Assembly: GCF_056746865.1 (NCBI RefSeq)
Contig: NZ_CM163382.1
Length of the DNA: 64,000 nt
Reading direction: 5' to 3' (one strand)
Shown: piece after piece, positions 6,363 through 37,503 of the stretch
Numbering within the stretch: the first letter of the stretch is position 1
Layout: the number at the start of each line of letters is the position of its first letter
Translations under genes and position numbers: made by a program
The notes under the pieces: generated by a model
What the model was told of the DNA's origin: nothing
Database searches by the model: none
The model's input: only the letters and a program-made list of their open reading frames with translations

Positions 6363-6430
6363 AACATACGAGCCGGACGCATAAAGTGTAAAGCCTGGGG
6401 TGCCTAATGAGTGAGCTGACTCACATTAAT
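6363..6430 (-). promoter_or_regulatory. lac promoter (-10, -35) and CRP (CAP) binding site
   Basis: minus-strand tttaca ... tatgtt hexamers and tgtgagtcagctcact CRP-like palindrome (taatgagtgagctgactcacatta on the plus strand). Confidence 0.75.
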
Positions 6431-7599: not shown

Positions 7600-8433
7600 T
7601 CAACGTAAATGCATGCCGCTTCGCCGTCCGGCCACCAGAATAGCCTGCGATTCAACCCCTTCTTCGATCTGTTTTGCCACCCGTTGTAGCGCCGGAAGAT
7701 GCTTTTCCGCTGCCTGTTCAATGGTCATTGCGCTCGCCATATACACCAGATTCAGACAGCCAATCACCCGTTGTTCACTGCGCAGCGGTACGGCAATAGA
7801 GGCGATCTTTTCTTCTTGATCCCAGCCGCGGTAGTTCTGTCCGTACCCCTCTTTGCGCGCGCGCGCCAGAATGGCTTCCAGCTTTAACGGTTCCCGTGCC
7901 AGTTGATAGTCATCACCGGGGCGGGAGGCTAACATCTCGATTAATTCCTTGCGTTCTTGTTCCGGGCAAAAGGCCAGCCAGGTCAGGCCCGAGGCGGTTT
8001 TCAGGAGCGGTAAACGTCGCCCGACCATTGCCCGGTGAAAGGATAAGCGGCTGAAACGGTGAGTGGTTTCGCGTACCACCATTGCATCAACATCCAGCGT
8101 GGACACATCTGTCGGCCATACCACTTCGCGCAACAGATCGCCCAGCAGTGGGGCCGCCAGTGCAGAAATCCACTGTTCGTCACGAAATCCTTCGCTTAAT
8201 TGCCGCACTTTGATGGTCAGACGAAAACTGTCATCGGAGGGACTACGCCGGACATATCCCTCTTCCTGCAGCGTCTCCAGCAGTCGCCGCACAGTGGTGC
8301 GATGCAGGCCGCTGAGTTCCGCCAGCAGCCCGACGCTGGCACCGCCATCAAGTTTATTTAACATATTTAATAACATTAGACCGCGGGTTAAGCCGCGCAC
8401 GGTTTTGTATTCCGTCTGCTCATTGTTCTGCAT
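7600..8433 (-). CDS. mhpR: IclR-family transcriptional activator of the mhp operon
   Basis: protein from MQNNEQTEYKTVRGL (277 aa) within a longer track ORF; divergent from mhpA. Confidence 0.88.
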   Translation of the reverse strand: MQNNEQTEYKTVRGLTRGLMLLNMLNKLDGGASVGLLAELSGLHRTTVRRLLETLQEEGYVRRSPSDDSFRLTIKVRQLSEGFRDEQWISALAAPLLGDLLREVVWPTDVSTLDVDAMVVRETTHRFSRLSFHRAMVGRRLPLLKTASGLTWLAFCPEQERKELIEMLASRPGDDYQLAREPLKLEAILARARKEGYGQNYRGWDQEEKIASIAVPLRSEQRVIGCLNLVYMASAMTIEQAAEKHLPALQRVAKQIEEGVESQAILVAGRRSGMHLR

Positions 8434-8465
8434 ATTAATTGACATTTCTATAGTTAAAACAACGT

Positions 8466-8482
8466 TGTGCACCTGGTGCACA
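8466..8482. promoter_or_regulatory. 17-bp palindrome in the mhpR-mhpA intergenic region (probable MhpR operator)
   Basis: tgtgcacc-t-ggtgcaca perfect 8+1+8 inverted repeat upstream of mhpA. Confidence 0.55.
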
Positions 8483-8623
8483 TTCGGGCATGTTTTGATT
8501 GTAGCCGAAAACACCCTTCCTATACTGAGCGCACAATAAAAAATCATTTACATGTTTTTAACAAAATAAGTTGCGCTGTACTGTGCGCGCAACGGCATTT
8601 TGTCCGAGTCGTGAGGTACTGAA

Positions 8624-10288
8624 ATGGCAATACAACACCCTGACATCCAGCCTGCTGTTAACCATAGCGTTCAGGTGGCGATCGCTGGTGCCGGTCCGGT
8701 CGGGCTGATGATGGCGAACTATCTCGGCCAGATGGGCATTGACGTGCTGGTGGTGGAGAAACTCGATAAGTTGATCGACTACCCGCGGGCGATTGGTATT
8801 GATGACGAGGCGCTGCGCACCATGCAGTCGGTTGGCCTGGTCGATAATGTTCTGCCGCACACTACGCCGTGGCACGCGATGCGTTTTCTCACCCCGAAAG
8901 GCCGCTGTTTTGCTGATATTCAGCCAATGACCGATGAATTTGGCTGGCCGCGCCGTAACGCCTTTATTCAGCCTCAGGTCGATGCGGTGATGCTGGAAGG
9001 ATTGTCGCGTTTTCCGAATGTGCGCTGCCTGTTTTCCCGCGAGCTGGAGGCCTTCAGCCAGCAAGATGACGAAGTGACCTTGCACCTGAAAACGGAAGAA
9101 GGGCAGCGGGAAACGGTCAAAGCCCAGTGGCTGGTGGCCTGTGATGGTGGGGCAAGTTTTGTCCGTCGCACCCTGAATGTGCCGTTTGAAGGTAAAACTG
9201 CGCCAAATCAGTGGATTGTGGTAGATATCGCCAACGATCCGTTAAGTACGCCCCATATCTATTTGTGTTGTGATCCGGTGCGCCCGTATGTTTCTGCCGC
9301 GCTGCCTCATGCGGTACGTCGCTTTGAATTTATGGTGATGCCGGGAGAAACCGAAGAACAGCTGCGTGAGCCGCAAAATATGCGCAAGCTGTTAAGCAAA
9401 GTGCTGCCTAATCCGGACAATGTTGAATTGATTCGCCAGCGTGTCTATACCCATAACGCGCGACTGGCGCAACGTTTCCGTATTGATCGCGTACTGCTGG
9501 CGGGCGATGCCGCGCACATCATGCCGGTGTGGCAGGGGCAGGGCTATAACAGTGGTATGCGCGACGCCTTTAACCTCGCATGGAAACTGGCGTTGGTTAT
9601 CCAGGGGAAAGCCCGTGATGCGCTGCTCGATACCTATCAACAAGAACGTCGCGATCACGCCAAAGCGATGATTGACCTGTCCGTGACGGCGGGCAACGTG
9701 CTGGCTCCGCCGAAACGCTGGCAGGGTACGTTACGTGACGGCGTTTCCTGGCTGTTGAATTATCTGCCGCCAGTAAAACGCTACTTCCTCGAAATGCGCT
9801 TCAAGCCGATGCCGCAATATTACGGCGGTGCGCTGGTGCGTGAGGGCGAAGCGAAGCACTCTCCGGTCGGCAAGATGTTTATTCAGCCGAAAGTCACGCT
9901 GGAAAACGGCGACGTGACGCTGCTCGATAACGCGATCGGCGCGAACTTCGCGGTAATTGGCTGGGGATGCAATCCACTGTGGGGGATGAGCGACGAGCAA
10001 ATCCAGCAGTGGCGCGCGTTGGGCACACGCTTCATTCAGGTGGTGCCGGAAGTGCAAATTCATACCGCACAGGATAACCACGACGGCGTACTACGCGTGG
10101 GCGATACGCAAGGTCGCCTGCGTAGCTGGTTCGCGCAACACAATGCTTCGCTGGTGGTGATGCGCCCGGATCGCTTTGTTGCCGCCACCGCCATTCCGCA
10201 AACCCTGGGCAAGACCCTGAATAAACTGGCGTCGGTGATGACGCTGACCCGCCCTGATGCCGACGTTTCTGTCGAAAAGGTAGCCTGA
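8624..10288 (+). CDS. mhpA: 3-(3-hydroxyphenyl)propionate hydroxylase (FAD monooxygenase)
   Basis: 554 aa; [10 protein letters not shown] dinucleotide-binding motif; first gene of the mhp cluster. Confidence 0.9.
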
Positions 10289-12118: not shown

Positions 12119-13880
<1,762 letters not shown>

Positions 13881-21045: not shown

Positions 21046-22108
21046 AAATAATCCAGATGGCATAAGCTAATAATACATACACAACGGAAAGCGGTGCTAA
21101 AGGCACCAACAACCAGCAACGATGAAACCAGGCGCTAAAAGCACCAATAACACAAACTACGCCGACCCAGATAAGCGGAAACATTGCCAACACCACACCA
21201 TACGGCCCGGTGGTGATGAATTCATTAAACCAGGTAGTGAGATAAATCCCAACGCCATAAAGCACAACCAACAGCATAGGAAATATACTGAAGATACCGA
21301 AGCGGCTAAATAAAAGCCTTTTATGCAGGCGCATACAGACCGCGTAGCCCACAATCCAACGCCGCCAGCGACGCCATTCCTCACGCGGGCTGTTGCATTC
21401 CTGTGGGTATACGATGCAGCGATTCGCCTGCCGAATACGATAGCCGTTTGCCACCAATGTCCAGGTGAGATCAAGGTCTTCGACTTTAGTACGATCAGAG
21501 AAACCGAACTTACGCAATACATCAGTACGGAACATCCCGCAGGCACCGCTGATAATAAACGGTGCGCCGCCCAGGAGCTGCTGTAGCGTGCGCTTCATAA
21601 CAATCATCGGCAACTTTACGGTCGCGCGGATGTGCGGTAACAGACCCGCGCCTTTCAACGCAGTAGAGGGAATGCCGCCTACGGCATCAGCACCGCGCTC
21701 TATTTCTGCAAGCATATAGCCCATTCCGTCTTGATCGGGCGGAACATAGGTGTCGGCATCACTTAAAAAAACCTGGTCGCAGGTGGCGTAATTGAGGCCA
21801 TTCATCAGCGCACCACCTTTACCGGTATTTTTTTGCGTGACGGCAACAAAGCGGTCGCCCCATTTGCGTTTGACTTCCGCCATGACCGCTTCGGTATTGT
21901 CCGTGGAGCCGTCGTTTACGCAAATTACCCGGCAAAAATAAGGATTACGCAGCAGATTATCCAGTGACTGTGCCAGACACGGGCCTTCGTTATAAGCAGG
22001 TATAATGGCGTCAATACAGCCTTTCTTTTGACTGGGTTTACGTTTTAGCGTACTTAAAAACCATAGCAACATTGCTATGGACATACAGATAAATATCCAG
22101 GTTTTCAT
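20912..22108 (-). CDS. yaiP: family-2 glycosyltransferase with membrane domain YaiP
   Basis: 398 aa; N-terminal TM, GT-A fold motifs (VNDGSTD, DAD), C-terminal TM segments. Confidence 0.8.
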   Translation of the reverse strand: MKTWIFICMSIAMLLWFLSTLKRKPSQKKGCIDAIIPAYNEGPCLAQSLDNLLRNPYFCRVICVNDGSTDNTEAVMAEVKRKWGDRFVAVTQKNTGKGGALMNGLNYATCDQVFLSDADTYVPPDQDGMGYMLAEIERGADAVGGIPSTALKGAGLLPHIRATVKLPMIVMKRTLQQLLGGAPFIISGACGMFRTDVLRKFGFSDRTKVEDLDLTWTLVANGYRIRQANRCIVYPQECNSPREEWRRWRRWIVGYAVCMRLHKRLLFSRFGIFSIFPMLLVVLYGVGIYLTTWFNEFITTGPYGVVLAMFPLIWVGVVCVIGAFSAWFHRCWLLVPLAPLSVVYVLLAYAIWIIYGLIAFFTGREPQRDKPTRYSALVEASTSYSQPSVTGTEKLSEA

Positions 22109-22789: not shown

Positions 22790-23397
22790 TTAATGACACT
22801 CCATTTTATTTATTATACTACAAGCACAACGATGCCCGCAGAGACGTAATCTCTGGCACAGACAGATGCTAATTTTTAAGTGTTAAAAATTACTGATAGC
22901 TGAAAAATAAGGGGCTTTCAGGTACGGGGATACGACTGCGTAATCTTTTATGTAGTTCATATGTTAAGTGTTTGTGTGTTTGGTTTGTATAGTTATTTTG
23001 TTTTATATATTGTATTTAGATGTGATTTAGTTTGTCAATTAATTACATATTAAAAATATGTTCTAGGCACAAATATGGATTATATACATTATGTGAATGT
23101 ATTATGTGGTTGATTGAGAATGATACAGTTATATATGCAATGTGAATATAATGATTTCATTATATGTATTGCTGTTAATAAAATAAAAGACATTATGTTC
23201 TGCTTGTTTATGCATTAATAAAAATGAAGTGCAGTAACTTACTGAATTGTCAGCGTGGGTGTAATTGCATATTTAATCTTTCCTTTGCCGCTTTTTTGCT
23301 AAGAATAAAATCATCTGTGCGATAACGACTAATTCTTTTAATGAATGTTTTTATTCCTGAATACTGCTCCTATAACAAGACAGGGGAGCAGACAATC

Positions 23398-27827: not shown

Positions 27828-27918
27828 CTGCTCTCCAATGACTAGTCTAAAAACTAGTATTAAGACTATCACTTATTTAAGTGATATTGGTTGTCTGGAG
27901 ATTCAGGGGGCCAGTCTA

Positions 27919-37194: not shown

Positions 37195-37503
37195 TTACTG
37201 GCGACGATGTCGCCAGTGCAGCCATAGCGCCACTACTGCAAAAATGAGGCAGCCTACTAAAAACGGGATCAGCCCGAAAATGGTGCCGACACCTAAACCA
37301 ATTTCCACCCGTGGGCGACCTGTTTCCTGGACCTGCATTAAACGCTCATAGACGCCGGGCGCATGCACTAACAGGTTCAGCAATTGCGCCCCAGCCCAAA
37401 AGCAAAACAGCACAAACAACGCATAGGCAATATTGCCAGGCGTTGAAGAGGCATTGCGATATTTTCCGCTAAACAGCGATTTTGACAGGGTGAAATCAGC
37501 CAT
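37195..37503 (-). CDS. yaiY: inner membrane protein YaiY
   Basis: 102 aa, two hydrophobic helices. Confidence 0.75.

What the first reader, a model, noticed from the sequence alone, without database searches (positions are those of the whole stretch)
8466..8482. Perfect 17-bp palindrome in the mhpR-mhpA divergent promoter region
tgtgcacc-t-ggtgcaca is an exact 8+1+8 inverted repeat about 140 bp upstream of mhpA, in the position expected for the IclR-type activator MhpR; a CRP site is expected nearby.
Basis: partly seen in the sequence, partly recalled or inferred. Interest (0 to 1): 0.25.

Follow-up and report, generated by a model that had tools for sequence, protein, structure and literature searches.

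The report
Known MhpR operator upstream of mhpA
The 17-bp palindrome is the already published binding site of the activator MhpR, which switches on the E. coli genes for degrading 3-hydroxyphenylpropionate, so the finding is correct but ordinary.

Summary
TGTGCACCTGGTGCACA is an exact 8+1+8 inverted repeat at 8466-8482. It lies in the 190-bp spacer between mhpR (7600-8433, minus strand) and mhpA (8624-10288, plus strand) of E. coli.

A perfect 8+1+8 palindrome is expected about 1.2 times per 64 kb by chance. The evidence that it is real therefore comes from its location and conservation, not from its symmetry.

It is the known MhpR operator. The published K-12 motif is GGTGCACCTGGTGCACA, which matches 16 of 17 bases. 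The single difference, T versus G at 8466, is a common E. coli polymorphism, and Klebsiella carries the identical perfect 17-mer.

In 78 of 80 loci encoding MhpR relatives (Escherichia, Citrobacter, Kluyvera, Pseudomonas, Azotobacter, Marinobacterium, Nitrincola and others) the core GTGCAC-N3-GTGCAC lies just upstream of mhpR. It sits in fixed register with a T-tract, a weak -35 (TTGTAG) and a -10 (TATACT). That puts its centre about 58-60 bp upstream of the predicted mhpA start site, an activator position.

The arms show no covariation, so the constraint is on sequence, as expected for protein binding, not RNA pairing. No strong CRP consensus is visible nearby, although the literature reports one.

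Side observations are the T/G allele split and a rare expansion of a 9-bp unit to 3-4 copies. Novelty: already known.

The parts
8466..8482 (.). MhpR operator: a perfect 17-bp palindrome TGTGCACC-T-GGTGCACA. The window carries the T allele at 8466; K-12 has G.
   Evidence: Sequence read. Published motif. K-12 sequence.
8467..8481 (.). Conserved 15-bp core made of two self-complementary GTGCAC hexamers (8467-8472 and 8476-8481) separated by a variable triplet. The core is at once an inverted repeat and a 9-bp-period direct repeat.
   Evidence: The hexamer positions are invariant or nearly so (73-76 of 76 unique orthologous sites), while the central triplet takes 16 different forms. The core matches exactly in 70 of 80 loci.
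8493..8504 (+). T-tract (8493-8496) followed by the predicted weak -35 hexamer TTGTAG (8499-8504) of the mhpA promoter Pa.
   Evidence: Conserved in ungapped register with the operator from Escherichia to Pseudomonas and Nitrincola. Invariant in 13 enteric sequences. TTGTAG matches only 3 of 6 consensus positions, so it falls below the sigma-70 scan threshold.
8521..8526 (+). Predicted -10 hexamer TATACT of Pa, 16 bp downstream of TTGTAG. The implied start site is about 8532-8534, which puts the operator centre (8474) at about -58 to -60.
   Evidence: Conserved TATACT or TATAAT at a fixed distance from the operator. The start-site position is inferred, not measured here.
8455..8462 (.). Conserved box TAAAACAA on the mhpR side of the operator; function unknown.
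   Evidence: Information content is 1.3-1.8 bits at -18 to -12 from the operator centre in 76 unique sites. The box is absent at second operator copies that are not next to mhpR.
7600..8433 (-). mhpR, the IclR-family regulator (277 aa) that binds the operator.
   Evidence: ORF. RefSeq annotation. Pfam HTH_IclR (E = 1.9e-14) and IclR_C (E = 1.2e-12).
8624..10288 (+). mhpA, the first gene of the activated catabolic operon mhpABCDFE.
8426..8447 (.). Weak CRP-like sequence TTCTGCATATTAATTGACATTT. One good half-site, TGACA, is conserved in Citrobacter and partly in Kluyvera. It is only a candidate for the reported CRP site.
   Evidence: Third-best hit of a consensus scan, with 6 of 10 core positions. 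Alignment. The assignment rests on my recollection of the literature (CRP centred near -95.5 of Pa) and was not verified here.

Best explanation
The palindrome is the DNA operator of MhpR, the IclR-family activator encoded by the adjacent divergent gene.

Proposed mechanism: an MhpR dimer recognises the two GTGCAC-containing half-sites. When loaded with 3-hydroxyphenylpropionate or phenylpropionate, it sits about 58-60 bp upstream of the mhpA start site, immediately upstream of a T-tract and a weak -35 (TTGTAG). From there it recruits RNA polymerase to the Pa promoter, together with cAMP-CRP, and so turns on mhpABCDFE.

Shown here: the sequence identity to the published motif, the location, the adjacent cognate IclR-family gene, and deep conservation of the operator in fixed register with the promoter elements.

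Taken from the literature: MhpR binding, inducer dependence and cooperation with CRP.

Inferred: the exact start site, the dimer stoichiometry and the polymerase contact.
For: (1) The K-12 sequence at this position, GGTGCACCTGGTGCACA, is the published MhpR motif (PMC8222616 Table 1 citing Torres 2003). The supplement lists it at b0346 and b0347, and lists the window's exact 17-mer in Klebsiella.

(2) It lies in the mhpR-mhpA divergent spacer, and MhpR has the HTH_IclR and IclR_C domains.

(3) Of 80 loci encoding MhpR relatives, 78 carry the core with at most 2 mismatches within 400 bp upstream of mhpR, and 70 carry it exactly. The hexamers are invariant while flanks and the central triplet diverge.

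(4) The operator keeps a fixed distance to the T-tract, the -35 TTG and the -10 TATACT across orders.

(5) In Marinobacterium and one Pseudomonas locus, a second operator copy precedes another catabolic operon with the same operator, T-tract, TTG, -10 layout and no mhpR next to it. The conserved role is therefore at the catabolic promoter.

(6) The two Vibrio loci that lack the motif also lack mhpA and mhpB nearby.

(7) There is no covariation in the arms; the score equals the shuffled expectation in 257 of 500 shuffles. This is conservation of sequence, as expected for protein recognition.

(8) The literature states that inducers stimulate MhpR binding to its operator in the mhpABCDFE promoter (PMC11237407), and that MhpR is a 3HPP-dependent activator of Pa needed for CRP binding (PMC8753852).
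Against: The primary papers (Torres 2003; Manso 2009 and 2011) are not in the held library. The footprint boundaries and the measured start sites could therefore not be read directly; only secondary citations were available.

Binding was shown for the K-12 G allele, not for the window's T allele.

The sigma-70 scan reports no promoter in the spacer at its default threshold, so the Pa elements rest on conservation.

The same sequence is called terminator-like on the minus strand.

An in vitro NtrC gSELEX peak maps to this spacer, so MhpR may not be the only protein that can bind here.
Confidence: 0.93

Rival explanations
1. The palindrome acts as an RNA hairpin in the mhpR 5' leader on the minus strand. 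There it would be an attenuator, terminator or stability element that controls mhpR post-transcriptionally.
For: The terminator scan flags the minus-strand sequence TGTGCACCAGGTGCACA followed by ACGTTGTTTT. A TTG(T/A)TTTA tract follows the palindrome on the mhpR-sense strand in most taxa. mhpR mRNA rises 15-fold at pH 4.4 without a change in promoter activity, which the authors ascribe to a post-transcriptional mechanism (PMC11237407).
Against: The RNA fold of 8434-8500 on the minus strand gives -10.9 kcal/mol with z = -0.76, and 41 of 200 shuffles fold at least as well. No compensatory changes are seen among 71 distinct sequences from very distant taxa. The only variable pair is unpaired in 30 of 71, and the covariation score equals the shuffled expectation. 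Second copies of the motif occur in front of catabolic operons with no mhpR and no U-tract. Whether the mhpR transcript starts upstream of the palindrome was not established here.
Confidence: 0.04
2. The site is, additionally or instead, a target of the nitrogen regulator NtrC, whose box TGCACCAnnnTGGTGCA shares half-sites with it.
For: In an NtrC gSELEX screen the mhpR/mhpA spacer gave a peak of 88% intensity and is entry no. 1 in the target table (PMC8743547). The palindrome contains TGCACC and GGTGCA. The K-12 allele contains TGGTGCA twice.
Against: The half-site spacing is wrong: 1 nt lies between TGCACC and GGTGCA, against 5 in the NtrC box. The gSELEX peak has low resolution and is in vitro only. 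The motif co-occurs with mhpR and catabolic genes across taxa, not with nitrogen genes. No sigma-54 promoter was examined or found here.
Confidence: 0.02
3. It is a chance palindrome, or a CRP site, with no specific relation to MhpR.
For: About 1.2 perfect 8+1+8 palindromes are expected per 64 kb by chance. The outer bases TGTG....CACA recall the CRP half-sites.
Against: Exact conservation of the core in 70 of 80 orthologous loci rules out chance. As a CRP site it fails: the halves are 7 nt apart instead of 6, and the best alignment at 8464-8485 matches only 5 of 10 core positions. The motif is also conserved in Pseudomonas and Azotobacter.
Confidence: 0.01

Closest known systems
MhpR operator at the Pa (mhpA) promoter of E. 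coli K-12 (Torres et al. 2003, as cited in PMC8222616)
   Same: Same locus, same position and the same 15-bp core GTGCACCTGGTGCAC, with 16 of 17 bases identical.
   Different: The window has T where K-12 has G at the outermost left base (8466). This makes the dyad perfect over 17 bp instead of 15. The T-type 61-mer is found in 2083 of about 4900 E. coli records and the K-12 type in 1338.
Predicted MhpR sites in Klebsiella pneumoniae (KPN_02122/KPN_02123) and K. variicola, from the IclR-family comparative study PMC8222616
   Same: The identical 17-mer TGTGCACCTGGTGCACA in the mhpR/mhpA divergon.
   Different: None at the level of the site; a different genus.
Other IclR-family operators for aromatic catabolism (PcaU, PobR, HmgR, GenR and others; the GTNCG-N5-6-CGNAC group)
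   Same: A 15-19-bp palindrome recognised by an IclR-type HTH regulator encoded divergently from the catabolic operon.
   Different: The half-site sequence is GTGCA rather than GTNCG. No external direct-repeat half-site of the PcaU/PobR kind was recognised. Each MhpR hexamer is itself a palindrome.
NtrC box TGCACCAnnnTGGTGCA
   Same: It shares the half-site letters TGCACC and GGTGCA, and an in vitro gSELEX peak maps to this spacer.
   Different: The half-site spacing is 1 nt rather than 5. There is no nitrogen-regulated context.
CRP site TGTGA-N6-TCACA
   Same: The outer TGTG...CACA letters, and the fact that CRP is reported to act at this spacer.
   Different: The spacing is off by one and only 5 of 10 core positions match. 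The palindrome is not the CRP site.

Membership tests
MhpR operator (IclR-family activator site of the mhp catabolic promoter) | The sequence matches the published MhpR motif GGTGCACCTGGTGCACA. | tested here: met
   16 of 17 bases match. The one difference is the polymorphic base 8466. K-12 carries the published sequence, and the site is listed for b0346 and b0347.
MhpR operator (IclR-family activator site of the mhp catabolic promoter) | It lies in the divergent mhpR-mhpA spacer next to the cognate IclR-family regulator gene. | tested here: met
   mhpR is at 7600-8433 (minus strand) and mhpA at 8624-10288 (plus strand). HTH_IclR and IclR_C domains are present.
MhpR operator (IclR-family activator site of the mhp catabolic promoter) | It is conserved at orthologous loci, in a phylogenetic footprint that co-occurs with mhpR and the catabolic genes. 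| tested here: met
   78 of 80 loci carry the core with at most 2 mismatches, and 70 carry it exactly. The hexamers are invariant and the flanks are diverged. The motif is absent in the two Vibrio loci that lack mhpA and mhpB.
MhpR operator (IclR-family activator site of the mhp catabolic promoter) | It is positioned upstream of the core promoter at an activator distance. I recall a centre of -58 from the literature, but could not verify this. | tested here: inconclusive
   The conserved -35 TTGTAG (8499-8504) and -10 TATACT (8521-8526) imply a start site near 8532-8534 and an operator centre at -58 to -60. No start-site data were available here.
MhpR operator (IclR-family activator site of the mhp catabolic promoter) | Physical binding by MhpR, stimulated by 3HPP or PP. 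| not testable with these tools
   Only secondary citations were available (PMC11237407; PMC8753852). The primary papers are not held.
CRP binding site | TGTGA-N6-TCACA, a 16-bp core with 6-bp spacing. | tested here: not met
   The halves are 7 nt apart, and the best alignment at 8464-8485 matches 5 of 10 core positions.
NtrC box | TGCACCA-nnn-TGGTGCA, a 17-bp dyad. | tested here: not met
   The half-site letters are present, but 1 nt separates them instead of 5 (sequence; consensus). The in vitro gSELEX peak in the spacer remains unexplained.
Intrinsic terminator or structured RNA element | A stable hairpin followed by a U-tract, with pairing maintained by compensatory change. | tested here: not met
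   There is a pattern hit on the minus strand. However, the fold z-score is -0.76 and covariation is not above shuffles.

The most novel reading that the evidence does not exclude
Natural variation of the operator tunes mhp regulation between E. coli lineages. Two variants are involved. The first is the T/G polymorphism at 8466, giving a consensus-like perfect dyad or the K-12 form. The second is the rare expansion of the 9-bp unit GGTGCACCT to 3-4 copies, which creates overlapping operators and shifts upstream elements by 9 or 18 bp. The same GTGCAC repeats may also recruit NtrC, or form a leader hairpin that contributes to the reported post-transcriptional rise of mhpR in acid.
Probability: 0.12. 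Interest if true: 0.35.

Novelty: already known. Interest (0 to 1): 0.08.

Why it matters
It matters little as a discovery. The site, its regulator and its cross-species conservation are already published.

It is useful as a positive control for the scan, because a reader working from sequence alone found a real operator and assigned it correctly.

Two minor practical points follow. First, the operator characterised in K-12 is the less symmetric, non-consensus allele. About 2083 of about 4900 E. coli records, as well as Klebsiella, carry the perfect 17-mer seen in this window. Second, the K-12-type allele forms a 9-bp tandem repeat that has expanded in 16 of 5426 complete genomes. That is a natural series for testing how operator copy number and phasing affect an IclR-type activator.

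Tried and rejected
Primary literature: Torres 2003, Manso 2009, Tropel and van der Meer 2004, Diaz 2001 and Ferrandez 1997 are not held. Footprint limits and measured start sites could therefore not be read.

The PredCRP paper and its supplement contain no mhp site.

The sigma-70 scan found no promoter in 8300-8700 at its default thresholds. I defined the Pa elements from conservation instead.

A consensus scan for CRP found nothing better than 6 of 10 core positions in the spacer. I could not decide which weak match is the reported site, and could not place the mhpR promoter(s). Several -10/-35 combinations tried by eye on the minus strand had poor hexamers or 20-nt spacers.

Counting 3-copy alleles with a 70-mer query failed, because 2-copy genomes were joined into full-length 'places'. 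A 34-mer spanning three units solved this.

The repeat finder at a minimum length of 10 did not list the palindrome, because its arms are 8 nt.

RNA hairpin hypothesis: tested by folding and pair counting and rejected as the main explanation.

Chance palindrome and CRP-site readings: rejected.

Full report
**Observation.** The window reads TGTGCACCTGGTGCACA at 8466-8482. The reverse complement differs only at the central base, so this is an exact 8+1+8 inverted repeat.

The window is the E. coli lacZ-lacI-mhpR / mhpABC region. A 401-bp stretch around the site is 100% identical to strain 118UI and at least 95% identical in 4900 RefSeq E. coli records. RefSeq annotation places mhpR at 7600-8433 on the minus strand and mhpA at 8624-10288 on the plus strand, leaving a 190-bp spacer. 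The palindrome ends 142 bp before the mhpA ATG and begins 33 bp from the mhpR ATG.

The mechanical ORF that runs from 8547 across the palindrome is not the annotated gene. Relatives align from residue 1 of the 277-aa product.

**Is it more than chance?** Not by symmetry alone. Simulated sequences with the same dinucleotide statistics contain on average 1.18 perfect 8+1+8 palindromes per 64 kb. The window holds nine perfect 8-bp-arm palindromes with spacers 0-3, against 4.7 expected. What makes this one real is where it lies and that it is conserved.

**Identity.** K-12 MG1655 has GGTGCACCTGGTGCACA at the homologous position. That string is the MhpR binding motif listed, with reference to Torres et al. 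2003, in Table 1 of a comparative study of IclR-family regulators (PMC8222616).

The supplement of that study lists the site for b0346 (mhpR, -48) and b0347 (mhpA, -159). It lists TGTGCACCTGGTGCACA, the window's exact 17-mer, for Klebsiella pneumoniae KPN_02122/02123. MhpR in the window has the HTH_IclR and IclR_C domains.

Other papers state that 3HPP, PP and DHPP stimulate binding of MhpR to its operator in the mhpABCDFE promoter (PMC11237407). They also state that MhpR is a 3HPP-dependent activator of Pa and is needed for CRP binding (PMC8753852). The primary papers are not in the library.

**Independent test by conservation.** A scan of one genome per species with MhpR returned 80 loci. 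They come from Escherichia, Citrobacter, Kluyvera, Edaphovirga, Shimwellia, Pluralibacter, Vibrio, Pseudomonas, Stutzerimonas, Azotobacter, Azomonas, Marinobacterium, Zobellella, Nitrincola, Oceanospirillum and Xanthobacter.
- In 78 of them the core GTGCAC-N3-GTGCAC, with at most 2 mismatches, lies within 400 bp upstream of mhpR, usually 41-46 bp from the start.
- 70 loci carry it exactly, normally once per 5.8 kb.
- In 76 unique sites the twelve hexamer positions are invariant or nearly so.
- The central triplet takes 16 forms.
- The outer pair is T/A in only 39 of the 76, and the flanks are diverged.
- Most loci have mhpA and mhpB divergent from mhpR. The two Vibrio loci without the motif also lack mhpA and mhpB.

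**Anatomy and mechanism.** Each hexamer GTGCAC is self-complementary, so the site is both an inverted repeat and a direct repeat of period 9.

Aligned on the operator without gaps, all taxa share three further elements:
- a T-tract at +19 to +22 from the operator centre (8493-8496);
- TTGT at +25 to +28, which gives the -35 hexamer TTGTAG at 8499-8504;
- after a 16-bp spacer, TATACT (or TATAAT) at 8521-8526.

The -35 matches only 3 of 6 consensus positions. This explains why the sigma-70 scan finds no promoter, and it fits an activator-dependent promoter. The implied start site is about 8532-8534, so the operator centre (8474) is at about -58 to -60. That agrees with my unverified recollection that the published centre is -58.

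In Marinobacterium (L047, L052, L061) and one Pseudomonas locus (L086), a second operator copy precedes another catabolic operon. It has the same operator, T-tract, TTG, -10 layout and no mhpR beside it. The conserved function is therefore activation of the catabolic promoter.

I infer, but did not show, that a dimer binds the two half-sites and contacts RNA polymerase from this class-I-like position.

**CRP.** The literature places CRP at this spacer. The palindrome itself is not a CRP site: its halves are 7 nt apart and it matches 5 of 10 core positions. The spacer has only weak candidates, at 8579-8600, 8497-8518 and 8426-8447, each matching 6 of 10.

The last candidate has a conserved TGACA half-site. 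It would be centred at -95.5 if the start site is 8532, which matches a figure I recall but could not check.

**Rivals.**
- The minus-strand sequence is flagged as terminator-like, and mhpR is reported to be up-regulated post-transcriptionally in acid. However, the fold is no better than shuffles (z = -0.76). Pair counting on 71 distinct sequences shows no covariation. The only variable pair is unpaired in 30 of 71, and the covariation score is reached by 257 of 500 shuffles.
- An NtrC gSELEX peak maps to this spacer, and the NtrC box shares half-site letters with the operator. The spacing differs, 1 nt against 5.
- Chance is excluded.

**Population variation.** The 61-mer centred on 8466 is matched exactly by 2083 records for the window's T allele and by 1338 for the K-12 G allele. 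T is also the majority base at this position in orthologous sites (56 of 76), so K-12 carries the less consensus-like form.

The G allele makes a tandem repeat GGTGCACCT-GGTGCACAT. Of 5426 complete genomes, 15 have three copies of this unit and one has four. All four that were sequenced through (L003, L004, L006, L007) are on the G background. Many come from one Korean chicken series and may be clonal.

**Verdict.** The feature is the known MhpR operator. Interest is low and novelty is 'already known'.

Noticed in passing
window 8466: There is a T/G polymorphism at the outermost base of the operator. The window's T allele (perfect 17-bp dyad) matches 2083 E. coli records exactly over a 61-mer, and the K-12 G allele (15-bp dyad) matches 1338. 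T is the majority base in orthologous sites of other genera.
   Followed up: yes
L003 182-205, L004 181-204, L006 181-204, L007 218-250 (homologous to window 8466-8482): The 9-bp unit GGTGCACCT is expanded to 3 copies in 15 complete E. coli genomes and to 4 copies in 1, out of 5426. The four loci whose sequence I read are all on the G-allele background. The expansion creates overlapping operators and shifts everything on the mhpR side by 9 or 18 bp. Many of the strains come from one chicken series and may be clonal.
   Followed up: partly
window 8455-8462: A box TAAAACAA sits 12-19 bp from the operator centre on the mhpR side. It is conserved from Escherichia to Pseudomonas but absent at second operator copies that are not next to mhpR. 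Its function is unknown; it may relate to mhpR expression.
   Followed up: partly
window 8434-8623 (mhpR/mhpA spacer): A published in vitro gSELEX screen reports a strong NtrC peak (88%) in this spacer (PMC8743547). The operator contains the NtrC half-site letters TGCACC and GGTGCA at the wrong spacing.
   Followed up: partly
window 8537-8564: A block ATAAAAA..TT(T/C)ACAT..TTAACAA is invariant or nearly so in Escherichia, Citrobacter and Kluyvera. It lies downstream of the predicted Pa start site. It could be mhpA leader sequence or part of the mhpR promoter on the other strand. I could not place the mhpR promoter(s).
   Followed up: partly
L047 2671-2685, L052 3301-3315, L061 3323-3337, L086 3343-3357: Second copies of GTGCAC-N3-GTGCAC lie downstream of mhpR, in front of another catabolic operon (MhpB-like, 45-47% identity, in the three Marinobacterium loci). 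They have the same operator, T-tract, TTG, -10 spacing.
   Followed up: partly
window 8526-8538 and 8579-8591; also 8571-8592: Inverted repeats are present in the predicted mhpA 5' leader: TGAGCGCACAATA / TACTGTGCGCGCA (85% complementary), and TTGCGC...GCGCAA. They might form a leader structure.
   Followed up: no
window 7600-8433 (mhpR): The literature reports that mhpR mRNA rises 15-fold at pH 4.4 with unchanged promoter activity, so the rise is post-transcriptional and its mechanism is unknown (PMC11237407).
   Followed up: no
window 6407-6428: The best CRP-like match in the whole window is ATGAGTGAGCTGACTCACATTA, at the lac promoter. From memory, it differs from the canonical K-12 lac CRP site by one base in the spacer (CTGAC versus CTAAC).
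   Followed up: no
window 62889-62906, 37198-37216, 13337-13354, 22062-22079, 22872-22890, 23147-23164, 27868-27885: These are other perfect palindromes with 8-bp arms, for example TTCATTTCCGGAAATGAA and CTGGCGACGATGTCGCCAG. With spacers 0-3 allowed, nine are observed against about 4.7 expected. None was examined.
   Followed up: no
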